A stretch of 64,000 nucleotides of DNA from Octopus vulgaris (lineage: Eukaryota): NCBI GenBank assembly GCA_951406725.2, contig OX597818.1:5208001-5272000 (forward strand), in the 5' to 3' direction. Every line of letters starts with the position of its first letter. Position 1 is the stretch's first letter. The translations under genes were made by a program, and so were the position numbers. The notes below the pieces were generated by a model. It made no database searches. It was not told where the DNA came from and worked only from the letters and a program-made list of their open reading frames with translations. Positions 7,428 through 52,423 of the stretch are shown here, piece by piece.

Positions 7428-9601
7428 CACTGTGCAACACTCAAAAAAGTACAAGAGATCTGTGGTCATTTTTATATGCAAAATGACATGGGAAATCCAT
7501 GGTTTCTACAGATTTGTCACTGTATACTCTTTTTGTCATTATTATTAAATAAAATTCTCTACCGCATTGTAAAATGGGTTTCAACCCAGGGCTAGAGACC
7601 AATCTTAGTAACACCTACAACGTGATTCAAAGCTTGTGTTTAATGTTATTTTTTATCTTTCAGATCTTATTTGTTTTCAACAATGAGTGCAAGACAGGGC
7701 AAAAATGATCCAAACAGATTCTGTTATATCTGGGGGGAATTGACTTTTGCTTAAGAAAAGCGCAGTATTACATGCCATATCAAGAAAATATACGAGGTGT
7801 ACTTCGATTGTTACTTAGGAGACCAGGATAAGTCATGGGCTCTTCATGTGTGCTGCCTTACATGCGTGAAGACATTGAGTGCCTGGTTTGCAGGAAAATG
7901 TTCACATGAAGTTTGGTGTGCCAATGATTTGGTCTGTGCAGAAAGAGCACTCTAATGATTGGTATTTCTGTCAGCATGACTTTACAGGCTGCAGTACAGC
8001 AAAGAAAAAGAAACACATTGTTTACCCAAATTTGAAATCAGCAATGCGCCATGTAGAGCACTGAGAAAATTTACCTGTGCCCAAATCTCCAGATCAAGAA
8101 ATACAGAGTCCCAGCAGTGCTGATGAACATTCCAGTGGTGAATGTGTGGAGCCCAATGATCCAGAAAGTGAGAATAAACCAATACCATTTTCTCAAAAGG
8201 CTCTAAATGACTTGTGCAGGGATCTCAATTTAACCAGGGAAAAGTGGGTTTCTGGCATCAAGGCTTCAAGAACGTAATCTTCTTGAGAAAGGATTGAAGA
8301 TAACATTGTACAGAAAACGTACAGAGGATCTGCTTGCATTATTCGCCATGAAGGATGACTTATGCTTTTGTAATGATATCACTGAACTTTTTGAGCAACT
8401 GGAAATAACATATGATAAAATCAACTGGCGACTTTTCATAGATGCATCCAAAGACAGCATCAAAGTTGTTCTGCTACACAATGGTAACATTCTGCCTTCT
8501 GTTCCCATAGTTTACAGCACACCCATGAAAGAATCATATGGAAATCTGAAAGCAATTCTAACAAGCACACAGTATGATGACCGTACCTGGCATATTTGTG
8601 CAGATTTTAAGGTTGTGGTCATGTTCACTGGCCTTCAGCTTGGCTATACTGAATTATGCTGCTTCCTGTGCTTATGGAATTCCAGAGCAAGAGCTGAATA
8701 TTATGTTCGCAAGGATTGGCCGATGAAATTGAATAAGGAAAACAATATCATGCACAAACCACTTGTGAAAAGTAATAGAATTCTTTTACCACCTTTGCAT
8801 ATTAAACTTGGTTTGTTTAAGCAATTTGTTAAAGCCTTGGACAAGGAATCCCCCGCATTTGCATATTTTGTAGAAAAGTTCCCTTTCCTGAGTCAAGCTA
8901 AAATGAAAGGTATCTTCATAGGTCCCCAAATTCGAAAAATTGTACTTGATGAAACCTTCATCACACATCTCAAGAGAAAAGAGAAGCTTGCCTTTGAGTC
9001 ATTCAAGAAAGTTTGCAATAACGTCCAGAGCAACCATCATTCAGAAGACCATGTGCAAGTTGTGAATGATCTGCTGAGTCATTATCATGATATGGGATGT
9101 AACATGTCTCTAAAAGTTTATGTGCTTCACTCTCATTTGAATTTTTTGCGGAAAGTCTTGGTGATGTGAGTGATGAACATGGCGAAAGATTCCATCAGGA
9201 TATTTCAGTGATAGAGTGACGATTCAAAGGAAAATGGAACCCTGGCATGTTGGCAGACTACTGCTGGGGTATGAAAAAACAGAAGATCACACTCCGCACA
9301 AGAGGCTTAGAGGGGCAAAAGTTGTTTAAACTGACAGGTGTGTTTTTAATTCATAACCATTATGTTTTGTTTTACCAACTAAATTTTTTGCTTTGTTTTC
9401 TGTAACTTTCAGTATTTGCAATGTTGTGTTCAATACGCAATACTATGCAGTATATTATAAAAAATATGGTTCATGGTACAGGAAAACGGTGCCTAATCAG
9501 GAGAAATAAATGTCAGAATCAGAATACGGACAATTTTTTGACCCAGAAACAAATCTTACTTAACTTGTACTTTTTTTGAACCTGAAATTTGTTGCACAGT
9601 G
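7428..9601 (+). mobile_element. Chapaev3-like (CMC superfamily) DNA transposon, full length but disabled
   Basis: Termini CACTGTGCAACA...TGTTGCACAGTG, subterminal TCAAAAAAGTACAAG shared by both ends, 3-bp TSD AAA. Confidence 0.85.
7683..9328 (+). pseudogene. Chapaev3-type transposase, frameshifted
   Basis: FCYI.G, GDQDKSWA.HVCC, FGVPMIW, WRLFIDASKDSIKVVLLHNGN, CCFLCLWNSRA, LLPPLHIKLGL, GIFIGPQIR, GCNMSLKV..LHSHL, SDEHGERFHQDI, MLADYCW; several stops and frameshifts. Confidence 0.88.
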
Positions 9602-27274: not shown

Positions 27275-27665
27275 GATCCACGCCCAGGTGGCAAAAATGG
27301 AAAAAAATATGTGTAACAGATGTAAGGCAACGTATATTGAAGGAAAATGACAAAAAAAAAAGCGCGCTGAGAAACGGGGGGTGGGGAAGGGGCTCGGAAA
27401 ATTCCCACGATCAACCGTAGAGGATCCGCGCCCAAGTGGCAAAAATGGAAAAAAATATGTGTAACAGGTGTAAGGCATCGTATATTGAAGGAAAATGACG
27501 AAAAAAAAAGCGCGCTGACAAACGGGGGGTGGGGAGAGGGCTCGGAAAATTCCCACGATCAATAAACCGAGCAATAAATCGAGCAATAAACCTCAACACC
27601 CGGTCGCAGGAGCGCAACAGAAACCGTCTAAATACTTCTCATGCAATGTGTATACAACAAATATT
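27275..27665 (+). repeat. Modular G-rich tandem array (units ~150-165 bp), inverted relative to 34683-35172
   Basis: Repeated block GCGCGCTGA(G/C)AAACGGGGGGTGGGGA.GGGCTCGGAAAATTCCCACGATCAA. Confidence 0.85.
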
Positions 27666-31163: not shown

Positions 31164-34100
31164 TCACGACAGCGTTTTAGCAACTGCCATTTGGTGCATG
31201 AGAGAGTTCGATGCAGCTGCCCTCATCTGCACCTCCTGCCGTGAAGTTGCTTCATCTGGGATACCTGACAGGAAGAGATCCAGTTTCATTTTAAAGACAT
31301 CTGCATCCACCCCATGCAGGTCTCTTAGGTTCTTCGGGAGGATATTGAAGAGCTGTGGGCCTCGGAAGCCCAGGCTATCACAGTATCTTGTCCTACATCT
31401 TGATGGCAAATTTGTAGTCCTAGGCACCACGTAGTGGCGCCCAGTTCTGGCATTTGTGTAACTCTCGATGCCAAAGTTTGGGATAAGTCGCTCCAGGATC
31501 TTCCAGATGTATATTATGGCATATCTTTCTCGCCTACGCTCCAAGGAATAGAGTTTTAATCTCTTGAGTCTTTCCCAGTAGCTTATATTCTGCATAGAGG
31601 CTATCTTCTTCGTGTAGGATCGCCTCAAGTTCTGTGATCAACTTGACACTGGATGGTGACCATAACTGAGAGCAATAGTCAAAGTGGCTTAGGACAAGTG
31701 TCCTCCAGAGGACCATCATGGTTTCTTGTTCTCTTGTTCTGAGAATCCATCCGGCCAGTCGTCTACATTTCATTGCCAATTTAGCAACATGTACACGAAA
31801 GGTTGCGTCATCACTCATGTAAATACCCAGGTCACGCACTGATTGTGCCTCTGGGATTGCAATTCCTCCGGGTCCAGTGTATTCATTGGGTATTGCATTT
31901 AGTTTTGCATGCTGATAGTATAAAGCTTGAAACTTTTCAGCATTGAACTGCATGCTATTCTTTTCAGCCCACTTGTATATTTTGTCCAGCTCACATTGCA
32001 GGCGTTTAGTGTCCTCAGGGTTCTGTATTGCCTGTGAAACTTTTGTATTATCTGCATAACTTGTGATCGTGGCTCTCTGCGTGGCTGAGGGCATGTCTGA
32101 GAGGGCCATTATGAACAGTAGTGGTCCCAAAACAGTGCCCTGCGGAACACCGCTCACTATTTGCGTGTTAATGGAAGTGGCTACTACCACCTGACTTCTA
32201 TCTTTCAGAAAGTCATGAAGCCATTCTACTACCACCTGACTTCTATCTTTCAGAAAGTCATGAAGCCATTCTCCCAGTTTTCCAACTATGTTGAGATCAC
32301 GCAGTTTGTGACATATAATTTCATGATCGACTTTATCAAAGGCCTTTGCAAAGTCGAGATATATCACTTCCACATTTGAGTGGTTGAGCAGTCGTTTCAG
32401 CACCCAGTCATAGTGTTGTAGGAGTTGAGTTAAACAGCTTCTCCCTGGTCGGAAACCATGTTGGGTGTCGGGCAGCAAGTCATTTTCTTCAAGGAAGGTG
32501 ATCAGTTTCCTTCTGACTATTCGTTCCATGACCTTGCTGATGTGTGAGGTGAGAGAGATAGGTCTGTAGTTCTTGGCCTCCGCTCTGCTACCTCCTTTAT
32601 GAATAGGGCATATTTTACCTCCCTTCAGATTTCTTGGAAGTTTGCCAGCTGCAAGGAAGCTCTGAAAGAGGAACTGCAGTGGTCTTGCTAGGACTCTCTT
32701 ACATACTTTTAGGAGGATTGCCGGGAATCCATCGGGGCCAGTAGCTGAGTCTGTTTTCATTTCATCTATAGCCTTTATTACATCGTCTTCCTTTATATCG
32801 ATGTAATTTATCGTCGCCGCCTCTGATTTTATATCTGCAGTGGTAAAGAAGTCAGTTGGATTGGTGATTTGGAAATGCCCAAGGGGTGGAGTGAAAACAC
32901 TCTTGAATTGCTCATTCAGTATTTCACTTACCCTCATTGGTTTTCCTGTGAGTGTGCCATCCTTGTCAAGGAGTGGCCCTATCCTACAGCGCACCGTAGC
33001 TGTTTCTTTGGCATACCTGTAGAAAGCTCTGGGGTTAGATTTTATGTTGTCTATAGCCCAGGTTTCTTTGTCTGCTCCTTTCTTTTCATGGGAGAGTTGC
33101 AGACATTTTTCAATTTCCAACAGTTTTATTTTCAGGCGGGACTTTTCACTGCTTTCAATTTGTTTGTTTAGGCGATTTGAAATTTTTGTACGCCGTCTCA
33201 TTAAAATTTTTCTCTCTCTGGGGATTTTGTTCTTGTGTACAGTGGCCTTTCTCTCTGGGACACATTTGTAGCATATGGCTTGCATTACAGACATGAATTG
33301 TTGAAGTTTCACGTCGATGTCTGTTGAGGAGAGACATTCAGGCCAGTTTTGTTTGAGGATCTCTTTCTCAATTTGCTTCCAGTTTGCCTTATGGTAGTTC
33401 AAGCTGGAAAGATTCTGAGGGTTTCTTGTAGGCTGCATGTCCGTGCTCTCTTTTGGCCCGTACATGGTCAGCTCTATCATGTTGTGATCCGAGAGTAGTG
33501 TCGATGTCACTTTCACATTATGGATGAGATCCATATTATTTGTGAAGCAGAGATCCAGTGTGTTACCTGCCCTGGTTGGTTGGAGTATTACTTGCTCCAT
33601 GTACAGGGTGTTGATGAGGTTCAGGAGGGACCTCGCCTGTCCTCGTTCACATCTTGTCATTCCTGGGAGAGAAAGGCCCTCGGGCCATCTGACATTGGGT
33701 AGATTGAAGTCTCCCATAAGAAGTACACTTCATGTGTTGTTCTAATGTGATTAGAACTTCTTCTATTTTTATAAGGCAGTCTTCAAACTTGCCTACATGG
33801 CTTGGGGCATCTGGAGGGCGATATGTAGCACACACAGCTACATCAAGTTGCCTTATATGTACAATTAGTGTGTCACACACCGAGTTTGAGTATGACAAAA
33901 GGACCTGGGGTGTGAGGTCCTCACGGATGTACATAGCAACTCCTCCATGACTCCTTTCTTTTCTGTCGGTCCGTAGTACAACATACTGTGGTATGTGTAA
34001 TTCCGCATCTGCTATGTCTGGTTTCAGGTGCGTTTCCGTAAGTGCTATGCATAAGGCTTGATTGCATGCAACAAAGTCTCTCAAGAACGGGATTTTTGGC

Positions 34101-34680: not shown

Positions 34681-34682
34681 AT

Positions 34683-35172
34683 TCAGACGGTTTCTGTTGC
34701 GCTCCTGCGACCGGGTCTTGAGGTTTATTGCTCGGATCCTCTATGGTTGATAGTGGGTATTTCCGAGCCCCCTCCCCACGCCCCCGTTTGTCAGCGCGCA
34801 TTTTTTTCTCGATATTTGTTGTATACACATTGCATGAGAAGTATTTAGACGGTTTCTGTTGCGCTCCTGCGACCGCGCGTTGAGGTTTATTGCTCGGATC
34901 CTCTACGGTTGATCGTGGGTATTTTCCGAGCCCCCTCCCCACGCACCCGTTTGTCAGCGTGCATTTTGTTCTCGATATTTGTTGTATACACATTGCATGA
35001 GAAGTATTTAGACGGTTTCTGTTGCGCTCCTGCGACCGGGTGTTGAGGTTTATTGCTCGGTCCTCTACGGTTGATCGTGGGAATTTTCCGAGCCCCCTCC
35101 CCTCCCCCCGTTTCTCAGCGCGCTGTTTTTTCGTCATATTCCTTCAATATAGGATGCCTTACACCTGTTACA
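34683..35172 (-). repeat. Modular G-rich tandem array, about 3 units of ~165 bp
   Basis: AGACGGTTTCTGTTGCGCTCCTGCGACC repeated at ~34685, 34847 and 35010; reverse complement of the 27275-27665 modules. Confidence 0.9.
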
Positions 35173-37930: not shown

Positions 37931-38499
37931 ATATTCCTCTCGAATCGATTTTACTCCATGAAGATGGCAAGCAGCTTGTTAGAATACTTGAATAAATGCA
38001 GTCTCTTCCTTACTTTTAGGATTATCTTAATGATTGTGGAGTTTCTATTAACCATTTTTGTTAGGATACTGTAGTTTTTTGGCTGTTATCGTTCATGGAT
38101 ATGTTTTGGCCTTGAAGACATCTTGATGTATAAGTGGGGAACGGTTCTGCAAAGATGGTACAGACATCTTTCCTACATCGTTTTCTAAAGCACAGTTTTT
38201 GAACACATTCCCATGGAGCAGGTGTTCAGACAACTTATATTATAAAATTAGAATATACATAAATCAAAATACATATTCGTCTACAAGCGTGACTCCATTC
38301 ATATAGCTTTGAATAAATTAACTTGTCTACGTAATTAAAAAATATTGTGGCATAGATAATATAAATGAATCGTAATTTGCACAAATGATTATTGGTGTGT
38401 CTTTATGTATATACGCTATATATTTATATATATATATATATATAATATACATATTTATATATAAGTGTGTATGTGCGTATATATATATGTTTATATATG

Positions 38500-38548
<49 letters not shown>

Positions 38549-38633
38549 GTAGGTCCCGGGTTGAGTCGGGGTTAACCACAGTAAATAAGGTACTCAATAC
38601 ATAGCAGAGTAAATTAATTTATTTTATAGAAGG

Positions 38634-38684
38634 AGCTTCTACAGGACTAGAACTGTTTCATTCAAAAGAAATCATCAGGAAGCT
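38634..38684 (-). ncRNA. Minimal type-I hammerhead ribozyme
   Basis: Exact reverse complement of 39795-39845. Confidence 0.8.
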
Positions 38685-39794
38685 AGGTGACAAGAATAGT
38701 TTTGGCATTTATACATTTAGGCAAGTTTAAAGGGGTGGTGGTGGGGGACTTTTTGGGGTAGGCATGGCGCAAACTATCATTCTTAGGGGAGTGGTCAAAG
38801 GAATCAGTGATAAAGTAGATAAAGGAATAAATAGAATAATAGAGTTTAGGTAAATAAGGAGACTCTCACTTATACATATATATATATATACATAAACACA
38901 CACATATACATATACACACACACACATATATATATACATACATACACATATATACATATATATATATATATATATACATACACATACACACATACATCCA
39001 TATACACATGTACATATGCACCCATTTACATACATCTACGTACACACCCATACCCATACTCATACATACACACATATATCTTCACACATATATATAAAAA
39101 TAAATAAATATAAAAACAAATATAAAAGAGGATATACACCCCCATACACACACGCTCATATATCTATATATATATATATATATATACACACACTCATACA
39201 CACTTATATATATATATATATATATATATACATACATATATACATACACATACATATGCATATACATGCACACACATACACACACATTTCTTCCCTTATT
39301 TTAATTTTATTTTTATGTCTATTTTTATTTTTATTTTTATTTTGACCTCCACCAACCAGGCCGGCACTGAAGTATGGTTCTCCCAAGGGATCTAGCTTAG
39401 CTGGCCTAAAGAAACCATTTATTGCCCCTCTCCCTTCCTTTCTATCTTTCTTCCCACTGATACGAACACAAACACTCACACACGCACACACACTCACACG
39501 CACACTCATACACATACACATACGCACGTGTTATATTCATACATACATAAGTGTACCGACTTTCACATATAACTATGTACACACAAAACCACATATATAA
39601 ATGTACTTCCGTACACATACGATGGGTAATTGCACGTATATATATTTATTATTTATTATTTGAGTATGCATGTATGTATATATGTATATGTTTGTATGCA
39701 TGTATGTATTTATGTATATATAGATGCGCGTCCCCCACCACCACCCCTTTAAACCTGCCTAAATGTATAAATGCCAAAACTATTCTTGTCACCT

Positions 39795-39845
39795 AGCTTC
39801 CTGATGATTTCTTTTGAATGAAACAGTTCTAGTCCTGTAGAAGCT
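39795..39845 (+). ncRNA. Minimal type-I hammerhead ribozyme
   Basis: AGCTTC-CTGATGA-T TTC TTTT GAA T-GAAA-CAG TTCTAGTC CTG-TA-GAAGCT: 6-bp stem I, intact core, 4-bp stem III, GUA cleavage triplet. Confidence 0.8.
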
Positions 39846-39860
39846 CCTTCTATAAAATAA

Positions 39861-39899
<39 letters not shown>

Positions 39900-47584: not shown

Positions 47585-49560
47585 GTATATATATAGAGAG
47601 AGAGATAGATAAGAAAGTTGGTTTGTGAAAGCACGTGGTTGAATATATAGAAAATAGTAAAAAGTGAAAAAACTACAGAAGGCTTAAAGGTTAAAAAATA
47701 TATATATTTGCGTCAATATGTCTGAAGAATATTAAAATTTTTTTCTTACAATGACATAATTTAGAAGAAAGACCGGTTTCGCGTTTAGCTTTCCAAATTT
47801 CTTGCGACGTTATGTTTATCTTGAACAGAGTTATCTTTATGTTTATGATTAAAAGAGTTCTAAATAAGGGGAGGTAGTGAGTGATTTCTTCCGGTGTAAG
47901 GGAGATAATCGCTTAAAATTAAAAAAAAAAATTTTCCTTTCCCTTGGTGTGAATTTCTCTGTATCAGTATGTTGGCATGGTTAAGTCTGGGCTTGTACTT
48001 TTCAATGAAGGATGTTTCTTTGTTTAGTCTAATTTGTGTTGAAGATCCGATAGCACATTGGTAAAAATGGAAAGATTAAACATTGTGGTAGTAGTTGCTT
48101 TGCGCATTTCTCAATATGCTCACTAAAGGGTATCATTCTCTATTCTGGGAATGCAATCTGTTGTCGATGCAGTGTGCATCTACGTCTGAGTGATAGTCCC
48201 GTGGATCCCACGTAGTACTGGTGGCAGCCCGAGCATTTAATGACATAAATTATGTTTTCAAAGGCACAAGTAAAGTTAGATTTGATCTTGAATTTCTGTC
48301 CCTCTTTAAAGAGGAATTCTAATCCTTCTAGCAGGTTTGGACATGTTGCACAGTTCGATCTACCACATTTTTTTACTTTTGCATCCGTAATTTCAGAAAA
48401 CAATTTTGCCTTTGTGAGAATCTTTTTAAGTGATTTAGGTTGTTTGTAGCTTTTAATGATTTTATGTATGTTTAGAATTTCCTTTAATTTGGGGTCCTTA
48501 TGAAGTATTGGTAAATTCTGGGTGATGATGGTGAAGGCTTCTTTGTTTCTGGGGTTGTATGTAGATATGTAAGGTAGTATTTTCGGGGAAGGTGTGTTGT
48601 TGTGTTGAACTTTTCTTAAAGTTTCTATGTTGATTTCTGTTGCACGTCTGGGTTTTCATTCCAGAGTATAAAACAATCGTCTAAGAATCGTTTCCAATTC
48701 TCTTTTATGTATTGAGAAAGGGGGTTTCCAAAGATTGATAAAGATTCCTGGTAAATGATTATTTCCATGTAGCCCATTGTTAGGTTCGCAATGACTGGTG
48801 CTGCCCATAGCAATTCCGGATTTTTGACGGTAAAATGTATTGTCAAACATGAAGTGGTTATTATGTAGGATGAATTCAATTGATTTAGTAATGAATTCTT
48901 TACTGATCCTTTTTGGTATTTCTTCCGGAAATTGGTCCAGCCAGAACTGTATTGCCTCTAGTCCATAATTATGAGGTATACTGGTATACAAGTTAACTAC
49001 AACAAATGAAACCAGGATTGTTTCTTCCTTGGCTTTTTTGGGAGGTGGTTTAACATATCTAAGTCATCTCTGATATGGCTATCGATATGTTTAAGGAAGG
49101 GTTTCAGGAGGATGTCCATAAATAGACTTAGTCTGTGTGTTTCACATGTTGGGCCAGCTACAATGGGTCGTAGTTTTAGGTCCCCCGGGTTAGGTGTGTG
49201 TATGTATGTCTTAGGTGATTTTTTAATGGTTTCATTTATAATTTGGCTTTTATGGATTTTTGGTAGACCATAGAAGAGGCTAGGATTGCATTTAAAGTTT
49301 GTTAGAAAGTCAGTCTCTTTGGTTGTTAGTTCCTTTTCATGGGTTTTAATTAGTGAAGATAGAGTTTTCATTATTTTTTGTGGGGTGTAGTTGGTAATTT
49401 TTTCATAATGTAGGTCGTCATCAAGCAAGGAAATTACAAGATTTCTATAGTATGATGTATCCATTATTACAACTGCATTTCCCTTGTCTGCTTCCTTAAT
49501 AGTTATATCCTCATCATTTTGAAGTTCTATCAGTTCCTTCCATTGTGTAGTGTTAAAATA
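47585..49560 (-). mobile_element. Penelope-like element (Neptune-type), 5'-truncated, internally deleted
   Basis: IKEADKGNAVV, FYGLPKIHK, LRPIVAGP, LYTSIPH, QKSGIAMG, WKRFLDDCF, linker CGRSNCATC, GIY-YIG IIYVIKCSGCHQYYVG; frameshifted. Confidence 0.93.
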
Positions 49561-49611
49561 TATATATATATTGTGTATTAAAATATATATATATATATAT
49601 TGTGTAGTGTT

Positions 49612-49664
<53 letters not shown>

Positions 49665-49748
49665 AAGGGTGGAAAGGAACACACGAGTTGATATATATGA
49701 AAAAACAAGTCAAGAATAGAAAATGCTAAGATAATTTTATAGTGAATC

Positions 49749-51283: not shown

Positions 51284-52423
51284 ATGTATCGTAAGGTTCT
51301 AGAAAGATATGGCAGCCCTTTCTCCATCTACATAGAAAACAACTGGAAGAGATATCTAGATGACTGTTTCATTCTTTGGCATAAAAATATAGAAAAACTC
51401 ATAGAATTCCAGGAAATTTTAAACGGACTGGACGTAAACATCCAATTCACGATGGAATATAGCCAGCAACAACTCCCCTTCCTCGATATCCTCATTAAGA
51501 AAGCTAATAATATAATAGAAACAGACATATACTATAAGCCTACAGACTCTAAGCAATATCTTCCATTCAATTCATGCCACCCCAGACACACCAGGATGAA
51601 TATCCCCTTCAATCTAGCAAAAAGGATATGCACTATAGACTCTAAGGCAAACACCAGAGACACACGACTACAAGAACTAAAAGATACCCTTATCACCAGG
51701 AACTATCCACCTTCACTTATTGACAAGTGCATTCAACGTGCCCTTCAACTTAACATCAAGGAACTGAGACATCCCAAATCAAAGAAAAACTTACAACCAA
51801 AAGCCTTACCATACATCTCCACACACAACCCTCTCAATAACGAAGCCTTCGGCAACATCCTCCACAACATACCCCTCCTAAAAAAAGACCACAGAATGAA
51901 CACAATCCTCCAAACAGACACGATCATAAAAAGCAAAAGACAGCCTAGATCCATGAAAAGTCTCCTAACACAAGCCCGAATTCACTCTTCAACACAGAAG
52001 CCGACAGTAAAAAAATGTGGAAGACCCAATTGCGGGATATGCGACTATCTAATTGAGGGATCAGAGTTCTCCTTCAAACAGGGACAACGGTTTACAGTGA
52101 AAAGCAACTTCACATGTGCTTCGGAGAACCTAATATACTCACTAACCTGCTCCGGGTGTCAAGAGCAGTACATAGGCCAAACAAAAAATGGCTTGCGTAA
52201 ACGAATGGCCCTGCACAGATCCCAGATAAAAATTCCCCAAAACAGAAAAATAGCTTTTAGCCAACACATAGATACTTGCGCCAACAAAAAAACACCAAAC
52301 TTCAGGATTTTCCCCCTCTACCAATTTAGGGACGATACAACCTCGAGACAACGAATAAGTAAAGAAAATCTCTTTATTACAAAATACAGGCCACTTCTTA
52401 ACGGGTCTACGACAAACAATTAA
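51284..52423 (+). CDS. PLE RT C-terminal half + GIY-YIG endonuclease (open 379-aa frame, 5'-truncated)
   Basis: WKRYLDDCF, PFLD, YYKPTD, SCHP, CGRPNCGIC, NLIYSLTCSGCQEQYIGQT, R..LHR, HID.C, E..FI..LN; no stops. Confidence 0.9.
   Translation: MYRKVLERYGSPFSIYIENNWKRYLDDCFILWHKNIEKLIEFQEILNGLDVNIQFTMEYSQQQLPFLDILIKKANNIIETDIYYKPTDSKQYLPFNSCHPRHTRMNIPFNLAKRICTIDSKANTRDTRLQELKDTLITRNYPPSLIDKCIQRALQLNIKELRHPKSKKNLQPKALPYISTHNPLNNEAFGNILHNIPLLKKDHRMNTILQTDTIIKSKRQPRSMKSLLTQARIHSSTQKPTVKKCGRPNCGICDYLIEGSEFSFKQGQRFTVKSNFTCASENLIYSLTCSGCQEQYIGQTKNGLRKRMALHRSQIKIPQNRKIAFSQHIDTCANKKTPNFRIFPLYQFRDDTTSRQRISKENLFITKYRPLLNGSTTNN

What the first reader, a model, noticed from the sequence alone, without database searches (positions are those of the whole stretch)
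38549..39862. Coding-free PLE-type element bracketed by two inverted hammerhead ribozymes with a U-U pair at the base of stem II
Seen: 133-bp inverted repeats (one mismatch) enclose ~1 kb of low-complexity DNA between (TA)n tracts. Each repeat holds a complete type-I hammerhead: stem I AGCUUC/GAAGCU, CUGAUGA, GAAA, stem III ACAG/CUGU, GUA site. Positions 10.1/11.1, normally G-C, are U-U, and loop III contains palindromic CUAG. Known: PLE pseudo-LTRs carry minimal hammerheads, some cleaving as dimers, and inverted 5'-truncated insertions are typical. Inference: a young element where transcripts of either strand would self-cleave. It is either a truncated PLE or a retrozyme-like non-autonomous family with an atypical core.
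Basis: partly seen in the sequence, partly recalled or inferred. Interest (0 to 1): 0.75.

Follow-up and report, generated by a model that had tools for sequence, protein, structure and literature searches.

The report
Cut-short Penelope element with ribozyme-first RNA
This is a one-off, head-to-head pair of cut-short ends of a common protein-coding Penelope-type jumping gene; its U-U hammerhead variant is already in print, but thousands of sister copies stop at the ribozyme's first letter, which likely marks the capped start of the element's RNA.

Summary
Observation confirmed; retrozyme reading rejected. The insert is two head-to-head 3' ends of a coding Penelope-like element (PLE), likely of the Hydra clade by protein motifs. 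The 'coding-free' interior is the family's long 3' UTR. A sister copy has an intact 713-aa RT + GIY-YIG frame, and the inversion join is unique in the genome. U10.1-U11.1 is family-wide (2162 of 2171) but published: Perreault 2011, and 14 of 25 Hydra families in Craig 2021 File S2. Subfamily changes inside the ribozyme fall on N7, loop II and loop III, which fits selection; cleavage is untested. Added here: a TATA box lies 29 nt before the first base of stem I. In a census of 121 arms, 52 stop at that base and 5 in the 28 bases upstream, often with an extra G (9 of 12 where no partner explains the base). The RNA likely starts, capped, at the ribozyme; uncut RNA is the main template, and cleavage at +45 would remove the cap. 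The scan noted head-to-head ends in this genome and the cap reading in another genome before.

The parts
38417..38548 (.). (TA)n-rich target tract, left
   Evidence: 29 of 30 top copies start at the same base after (TA)n or a similar dinucleotide tract
38549..39619 (-). Left arm: 3'-terminal 1071 nt of the PLE (UTR, pLTR, hammerhead, tail), sense on the minus strand
   Evidence: same landmark order downstream of the ORF in L032
38549..38609 (-). About 60-nt tail, on this arm only; in full-length copies it lies just upstream of the ORF
38634..38684 (-). Type I hammerhead motif, U10.1-U11.1; predicted cut between 38640 and 38639; inferred transcript +1 at 38684
   Evidence: +1 inferred
38708..38713 (-). 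TATAAA, 29 nt upstream of stem I (predicted TATA box)
   Evidence: sequence; spacing across subfamilies
38750..39619 (-). Distal part of the long low-complexity 3' UTR, shared by other copies
39618..39729 (+). Proximal 3' UTR piece, which starts about 380 nt after the stop codon in coding copy L032; joined to the left arm through 2 shared bases (inversion join, unique in the genome)
39730..39866 (+). Right arm: pLTR end without tail, reached by a jump over about 2.2 kb of UTR with 2 shared bases; right end blurred into (AT)n
39766..39771 (+). TATAAA, 29 nt upstream of stem I (predicted TATA box)
   Evidence: sequence
39795..39845 (+). Type I hammerhead motif, U39808-U39819 at 10.1/11.1; predicted cut after 39839; inferred transcript +1 at 39795
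39836..39854 (+). Predicted 8-bp hairpin that covers the cut site and the 3' strand of stem I
   Evidence: stem I pairing probability 0.99 for +1..+51, 0.09 for +1..+68, 0.14 for +1..+135
39857..39899 (.). (AT)n target tract, right

Best explanation
The insert is two head-to-head, cut-short 3' ends of a protein-coding Penelope-like retrotransposon, likely of the Hydra clade, and its hammerhead likely forms the very first 51 bases of the element's capped RNA. Shown: intact relatives read pLTR(hammerhead) - tail - 713-aa RT/GIY-YIG frame - about 2.5 kb low-complexity UTR - pLTR(hammerhead) - tail. Shown: insertions sit in (TA)n, and where both arms of a pair were seen one usually carries the tail and the other lacks it. 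Inferred: the protein nicks both strands of a (TA)n tract and reverse-transcribes from two AT-rich start sites, about 65 and about 135 nt after +1. The two cDNAs then join at short microhomologies. This copy was primed in a 3' pLTR, so both arms run upstream past the promoter; the right cDNA jumped once over about 2.2 kb. Inferred: priming in the 5' pLTR runs off the capped RNA end at +1, often copying the cap as an extra G, and gives the abundant mini-palindromes. Inferred: uncut RNA is the main template. The U-U ribozyme is likely slow, dimer- or protein-assisted and gated by a competing hairpin; when it cuts at +45 it would remove the cap from the mRNA.
For: Coding link: L032 and L035 join the window's UTR and pLTR landmarks to RT/EN sequence. 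The window pLTR is 248/255 identical to L032's and 264/288 to intact L111's. L111 has an uninterrupted 713-aa frame between two hammerhead pLTRs. 18 of 20 ORF-centred 10-kb regions show a sense hammerhead about 2.5-4.5 kb after the ORF. Hydra motifs: DKT, CxCX5C, CxxC and CxH late in the EN, no CCHH. The inversion join has 1 match in the genome with one mismatch allowed. U-U: 2162 of 2171 and 115 of 115 promoter-bearing arms, where the frequent changes are only N7 (40 U/75 A), one loop II base and one loop III base. The loop III change lengthens the palindrome (duplex -14.8 to -17.2 kcal/mol). Start site: TATAAA or CATAAA at -29 in subfamilies whose spacer differs. Census of all 121 listed arms with intact stem I on C1:1-50.3 Mb: 52 stop at +1, 5 stop within -1..-28, 64 carry the promoter. 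The base before +1 is G in 25 of 52, and in 9 of 12 where no partner arm explains it (G background 0.176, p about 2e-5). No promoter-bearing arm has G at -1. At the cut site only 4 of 25 truncated arms have G. An untemplated G is attributed to copying of the cap for L1/SVA (PMC3287187 passages). Uncut RNA as dominant substrate and protein-assisted cleavage were reported for Poseidon_Ac (PMC11167929).
Against: No cleavage assay and no RNA-end data: the only runs were contigs of guessed RNA status. Clade placement rests on motifs; no tree was built, RWK reads RWR, and the element is about 4.8 kb against 'generally <3 kb'. No intact full frame was found for the window's own subfamily; the best is a 587-aa 5'-truncated piece, 93% nucleotide identity to L111. 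20 of the 52 stops at +1 are joins on the self-complementary AGCT, which could attract joins whatever the RNA end. D. virilis Penelope has a TATA-less internal promoter (PMC2377424 passages), so an upstream TATA box is not the known PLE pattern. No compensatory stem change was seen, so structure is supported by the position of changes, not by covariation. A few subfamilies, not 115 independent events, underlie that pattern. The 9-of-12 count rests on few loci from part of one contig.
Confidence: 0.8

Rival explanations
1. Same truncated PLE, but the pile-up of ends at stem I comes from RT stalling or cDNA fold-back on stem I and its palindromic AGCT, not from a transcription start; the extra G is terminal-transferase activity.
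For: 20 of 52 stops at +1 are perfect AGCT palindromes. The second AGCT, 3' of the cut site, also collects palindromic joins (9 of 20 truncated arms). 18 of 69 cut-site arms are stem-I-homology joins.
Against: The boundary is one-sided: 52 at +1 against 5 over the next 28 bases. TATA spacing is fixed across diverged spacers. G is enriched at +1 ends (9 of 12) but not at cut-site ends (4 of 25). In L362 both arms reach +1 and each carries the extra base.
Confidence: 0.13
2. A non-autonomous, retrozyme-like family bracketed by inverted hammerheads, spreading as a unit through self-cleaved or circular RNA.
For: This copy has no coding sequence. Animal retrozymes are proposed to derive from PLE pLTRs (10.64898/2026.07.22.740005, abstract and first fifth of the text).
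Against: The inversion join is unique in the genome, and neither join occurs in any other locus held. The interior is the UTR of a coding element. There are no head-to-tail tandem units. Arms ending at the cut site are about 35-60 genome-wide against roughly 2,600 at +1 (estimates).
Confidence: 0.03
3. The hammerhead motif no longer cleaves and is kept only as a promoter or RT-binding structure.
For: U-U weakens stem II, and the active fold is out-competed once the RNA passes +60. There is no clear excess of arms ending at the cut site: about 35 (plus about 25 ambiguous) against about 22, 18 and 47 at neighbouring offsets. Hammerhead mutants did not affect Poseidon_Ac insertion in vitro.
Against: Frequent changes avoid all catalytic bases and fall on N7 and loops. 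The loop III palindrome is kept or lengthened. In five loci both arms end at the scissile bond (L173/174, L198/199, L325, L344, L353), a weak hint of cut templates. U-U supports more cleavage than any other mispair at this position (PMC3088659 section 8).
Confidence: 0.2

Closest known systems
Hydra-clade PLEs (Craig et al. 2021, PMC8557442; section 11, File S1 Hydra sheet, File S2, two protein passages seen)
   Same: C-terminal GIY-YIG, DKT, CxCX5C linker, late CxxC and CxH, no CCHH, (TA)n targets, inverted 5'-truncated partner and one-sided tail. U after A9 and U before GAAA in 14 of 25 listed families. N-terminal half clearly similar by eye to Hydra-1_Obim and Hydra-1_Ajap.
   Different: A different family from Hydra-1_Obim, whose hammerhead sequence is unrelated. 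RWR for RWK. About 4.8 kb because of a 2.5-kb low-complexity UTR. Tail about 60 nt against 30-40. Loop III 8 nt against 1-3 nt in the listed Hydra motifs.
Poseidon_Ac of the green anole (Frangieh et al. 2024, PMC11167929; first two of four parts read)
   Same: Two internal RT start sites that define the tail, AT-rich targets, uncut RNA as dominant template, no clear RNA or DNA ends at the cut site.
   Different: There the ORF starts inside the hammerhead; here it starts 183 nt after stem I. Both ends here are AT-rich and blend into the (TA)n target. No transcription start was given in the parts read.
Natural U10.1-U11.1 hammerhead (Perreault et al. 2011, PMC3088659; section 8 and passages)
   Same: Stem II opened by a U-U mismatch, weak stems, palindromic stem/loop III proposed for dimers.
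   Different: The source organism and rate are in figures and a PDF that I could not see; here the variant is fixed in more than 5,000 motifs of one PLE family group.
Metazoan non-LTR retrozymes (Li, Clavereau, Pollet 2026, 10.64898/2026.07.22.740005; first fifth read)
   Same: Type I hammerhead, no coding sequence in this copy, PLE ancestry.
   Different: Retrozymes are head-to-tail tandem units; this is a single head-to-head pair with a unique join.

Membership tests
EN+ Penelope-like element | Single ORF with RT and C-terminal GIY-YIG | tested here: met
   713-aa frame with YRDD and VY..YIG; 1115 homologues, some carrying PF01541 or PF00078; Pfam itself gave no RT or GIY-YIG hit on this protein
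EN+ Penelope-like element | Hammerhead-bearing pLTRs in partial tandem, inverted truncated partner, one-sided tail | tested here: met
   definition from PMC8557442 passages
Hydra clade | DKG changed to DKT | tested here: met
   DKT at residue 116
Hydra clade | CxCX5C linker; CxxC and CxH around the conserved E and N; CCHH absent | tested here: met
   CNCPDKTTC at 567; only CxxC at 667, only CxH at 695
Hydra clade | RWK motif; GxKF/Y not conserved | tested here: inconclusive
   Reads RWR (conservative change) and YGFKS
Hydra clade | Insertion into (TA)n | tested here: met
Hydra clade | Placement in the Hydra RT clade on a tree | not tested
   Reference proteins were seen only as paper supplement text and compared by eye
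Hydra clade | Generally under 3 kb (descriptive, not diagnostic) | tested here: not met
   About 4.8 kb from +1 to the next +1 in L111
Non-LTR retrozyme | Head-to-tail tandem non-coding units spreading as a unit | tested here: not met
   No such tandem; unique join; interior is UTR of a coding element
Non-LTR retrozyme | Circular RNA | not testable with these tools
   Only contigs of uncertain RNA status were served
Type I hammerhead ribozyme | CUGANGA, GAAA, UH and three stems | tested here: met
Type I hammerhead ribozyme | Paired 10.1-11.1 (usually G-C) | tested here: not met
   U-U in 2162 of 2171; a published natural exception
Type I hammerhead ribozyme | Self-cleavage | not testable with these tools
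   Needs a bench assay

The most novel reading that the evidence does not exclude
In this PLE family the hammerhead is a self-decapping switch at nucleotide +1 of a TATA-driven mRNA. It can fold only while the first ~51 bases are out, before a hairpin locks it off; the U-U pair and dimer-dependent stem III tune it to cut a minority of transcripts. That would limit protein output, while uncut capped RNA serves as mRNA and RT template. It would answer the open question of what hammerheads do in endonuclease-bearing PLEs.
Probability: 0.3. Interest if true: 0.7.

Novelty: new member of a known kind. Interest (0 to 1): 0.4.

Why it matters
The locus itself is an ordinary PLE fragment, and the U-U core is known. 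The family is useful because it is young, has more than 5,000 motif copies and intact frames, and its copy ends record where the RNA began and whether it was cut. Craig et al. state that hammerhead function in EN+ PLEs is unclear. Placing the ribozyme at the likely capped +1, with cleavage predicted to remove the cap, gives a sharp test: 5' RACE or CAGE, a reporter, and a cleavage assay. I did not find this start-site placement in the papers seen (searches; listings only for most hits; subscription papers and PMC5785218 not held).

Tried and rejected
Rfam: no hammerhead family hit. Pfam on the ORF: no RT or EN hit. No RNA holder listed; four contig runs laid on the pLTR/ORF junction gave no start or end information, so they count neither way. 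Test for cut-RNA templates: no clear peak at the scissile bond. Truncated arms were 14 of 30 seen (48 total) at offset -1; 25 plus 18 ambiguous of 69 seen (96 total) at 0; 3 of 30 (183) at +1; 20 of 30 (71) at +2. Four rows that the script called truncated at offset 0 (L191, L346, L350, L358) were reclassed by eye, and ends joined to TA filler are under-counted there. The pooled G counts were not used, because 17 of the 20 regions were picked for having G; the census uses all listed hits in one interval instead. Two of its 121 arms (C1:33330858/870) were classed from coordinates alone. The 660-aa ORF first found in L050 belongs to another PLE family (about 32% identity) and was dropped. The '506-aa RT-only' copies are full-length with a frameshift at one C-run, real or an assembly error, not endonuclease-less. 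A bulged-U register for stem II gives no better pairing (by eye). The translation was out of frame and the regex was faulty; both were redone. Lunse et al. (PMC5785218) was not held; it may already cover U-U PLE variants. Figure S6 of PMC3088659 yielded no text on U-U. No structure prediction, tree or covariance model was run.

Full report
1. Observation. The arms, the two hammerhead motifs, U at 10.1 and 11.1, the CUAG in loop III and the (TA)n flanks are all present as described. The inner 133 nt of the arms differ at one base. Rfam does not detect the motif. It is not chance: the core pattern has 2171 matches in the 2.8-Gb genome against 0 for the reversed control, and a wider pattern has 5385.

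2. What it is. The left 322 nt had 1355 first-look candidates, of which 40 were scored, at 94-100% identity. The low-complexity interior continues in the other copies, so it is family sequence. Twenty 10-kb regions around these copies gave the order in the sense direction: ORF, proximal UTR (window 39618-39729), more low-complexity UTR, distal UTR (window 39619 down to 38750), hammerhead, tail. A protein search with the 565-aa piece from L035 returned 79 matches from 77 scored candidates. In 18 of 20 ORF-centred regions a sense hammerhead follows the ORF. L111 is complete: pLTR, tail, uninterrupted 713-aa frame, 2460 nt to the next stem I, pLTR, tail. The window's pLTR matches L032 at 248/255 and L111 at 264/288; the L035 and L111 frames are 93% identical in DNA. 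No intact frame of the window's own subfamily was found.

The window copy therefore has three pieces. The first is a 1071-nt tailed 3' end on the minus strand (38549-39619). The second is a 112-nt UTR piece on the plus strand, joined through two shared bases. The third is a tail-less pLTR end, reached by a jump of about 2.2 kb. The inversion join has one match in the genome with a mismatch allowed, and neither join is in any other locus held. An inverted truncated partner and a one-sided tail are the published PLE pattern (PMC8557442 passages). The retrozyme reading fails.

3. Clade. The protein has DKT, a CxCX5C linker, CxxC and CxH late in the endonuclease and no CCHH, the features given for the Hydra clade (section 11). 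RWK reads RWR, the element is longer than typical, and no tree was built, so membership is likely, not proven. Pfam gave no RT or GIY-YIG hit; the best listed homologues are 37-52% identical and nearly all unnamed. Earlier scan notes call this genome octopus; I did not test that.

4. The U-U pair. It is in 2162 of 2171 motifs and in 115 of 115 promoter-bearing arms. The frequent changes in those arms are N7 (U or A), one loop II base and one loop III base; other loop II variants occur in further subfamilies. The loop III change lengthens the palindrome and strengthens the predicted dimer. This fits selection on a hammerhead, although it reflects a few subfamilies and shows no compensatory pair change. 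The variant is not new. Perreault et al. report a natural U10.1-U11.1 and say U-U supports more cleavage than any other mispair there (section 8). Craig et al. File S2 shows U at both places in 14 of 25 Hydra families. Cervera and de la Pena describe G10.1-C11.1 as highly conserved in the PLE motifs they found, and low in vitro activity (parts 1-2 of 4).

5. Where copies end. Of 98 arms anchored on the core and loop III, 23 ran past -39, 5 ended at -9 to -14, and 70 ended between -1 and +7, with 28 exactly at the first base of stem I (arms cut further 3' cannot be counted by this pattern). A full census of the 121 listed arms with intact stem I on C1:1-50.3 Mb (59 non-T, 62 T; classed) gave 52 stops at +1, 5 within -1..-28 and 64 with the promoter. 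Before +1 the base is G in 25, A in 21 (20 AGCT palindromes), C in 4 and T in 2. Where no partner arm explains the base, it is G in 9 of 12 (p about 2e-5 at 0.176). No promoter-bearing arm has G at -1. TATAAA or CATAAA stands at -29 in subfamilies with diverged spacers; two arms have it at -30 and two have a spacer deletion. An untemplated G at full-length 5' ends is attributed to copying of the cap in L1/SVA. I infer a capped start at 39795 and 38684. I wrote this idea down; the scan's note e1-8021554, seen, gives the same reading for another genome, and is an unchecked lead rather than support. Against it: the AGCT palindrome attracts joins by itself, D. virilis Penelope has a TATA-less internal promoter, and no RNA ends could be seen.

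6. Cut or uncut template. Estimated truncated arms are about 22, 35 (plus about 25 stem-I-homology joins), 18 and 47 at offsets -1, 0, +1 and +2 from the scissile bond. There is no clear peak, and these compare with roughly 2,600 ends at +1 (52/121 of 5995 motifs). Five loci with both arms ending at the bond are a weak hint of some cut templates. G precedes only 4 of 25 of these ends. Folding predicts stem I at probability 0.99 for +1..+51, falling to about 0.1 once a downstream hairpin can form. For Poseidon_Ac, uncut RNA was the dominant substrate and cleavage needed protein.

7. Mechanism. Shown: anatomy, coding link, family-wide U-U, end distribution. Inferred: two primings on a doubly nicked (TA)n target from two AT-rich RNA sites, joined at microhomologies. 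Priming in the 3' pLTR gave this copy; priming in the 5' pLTR with run-off at the cap gives the mini-palindromes. Predicted: a slow, gated ribozyme whose cut at +45 would decap the mRNA. For this locus each arm keeps its TATA box and would point outward into the flanks; a read-through RNA would more likely form a long duplex than self-cleave (inference).

8. Verdict. The start-site placement is the part worth following. It was not found in the searches; Lunse et al. was not available. Interest 0.4.

Noticed in passing
G000:C1:1.7-41.6 Mb (L051-L080, L131-L170): 46 of the first 100 listed motifs are in mini-palindromes with 4-27 nt between the two cores, with many different joins and from several subfamilies.
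   Followed up: yes
L038 minus its + strand 9167; L052 + strand 1139: Hammerheads of other families in this genome also have unpaired 10.1/11.1 (U-U in L038, A-A in L052).
   Followed up: partly
L121-L129: Many near-identical full-length copies share a frameshift at a C-run just after the RT (query residue 346); it may be a real mutation, an assembly error or recoding.
   Followed up: no
L035, L042, L032, L050: Several insertions join the inverted arm directly into the middle of the ORF or show extra template jumps, so multi-jump copies like the window's are common.
   Followed up: partly
window 48997-49725 (-) and 51284-52423 (+): Pieces of an unrelated PLE with a GIY-YIG hit and several CxxC motifs (Neptune-like by recalled pattern), in inverted arrangement.
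   Followed up: no
window 31534-33729 (-): 731-aa LINE-type ORF with endonuclease and RT Pfam hits.
   Followed up: no
window 8234-9169 (+): 311-aa open frame without a Pfam hit; looks transposase-like (recalled resemblance, no call).
   Followed up: no
window 27275-27562 and 34681-35123: 148-nt and 163-nt tandem units that share sequence in opposite orientation, judged from the consensus text.
   Followed up: no
L111:2089-2272: The inferred 183-nt leader holds two upstream ATGs, at +24 (inside stem II) and +84.
   Followed up: no
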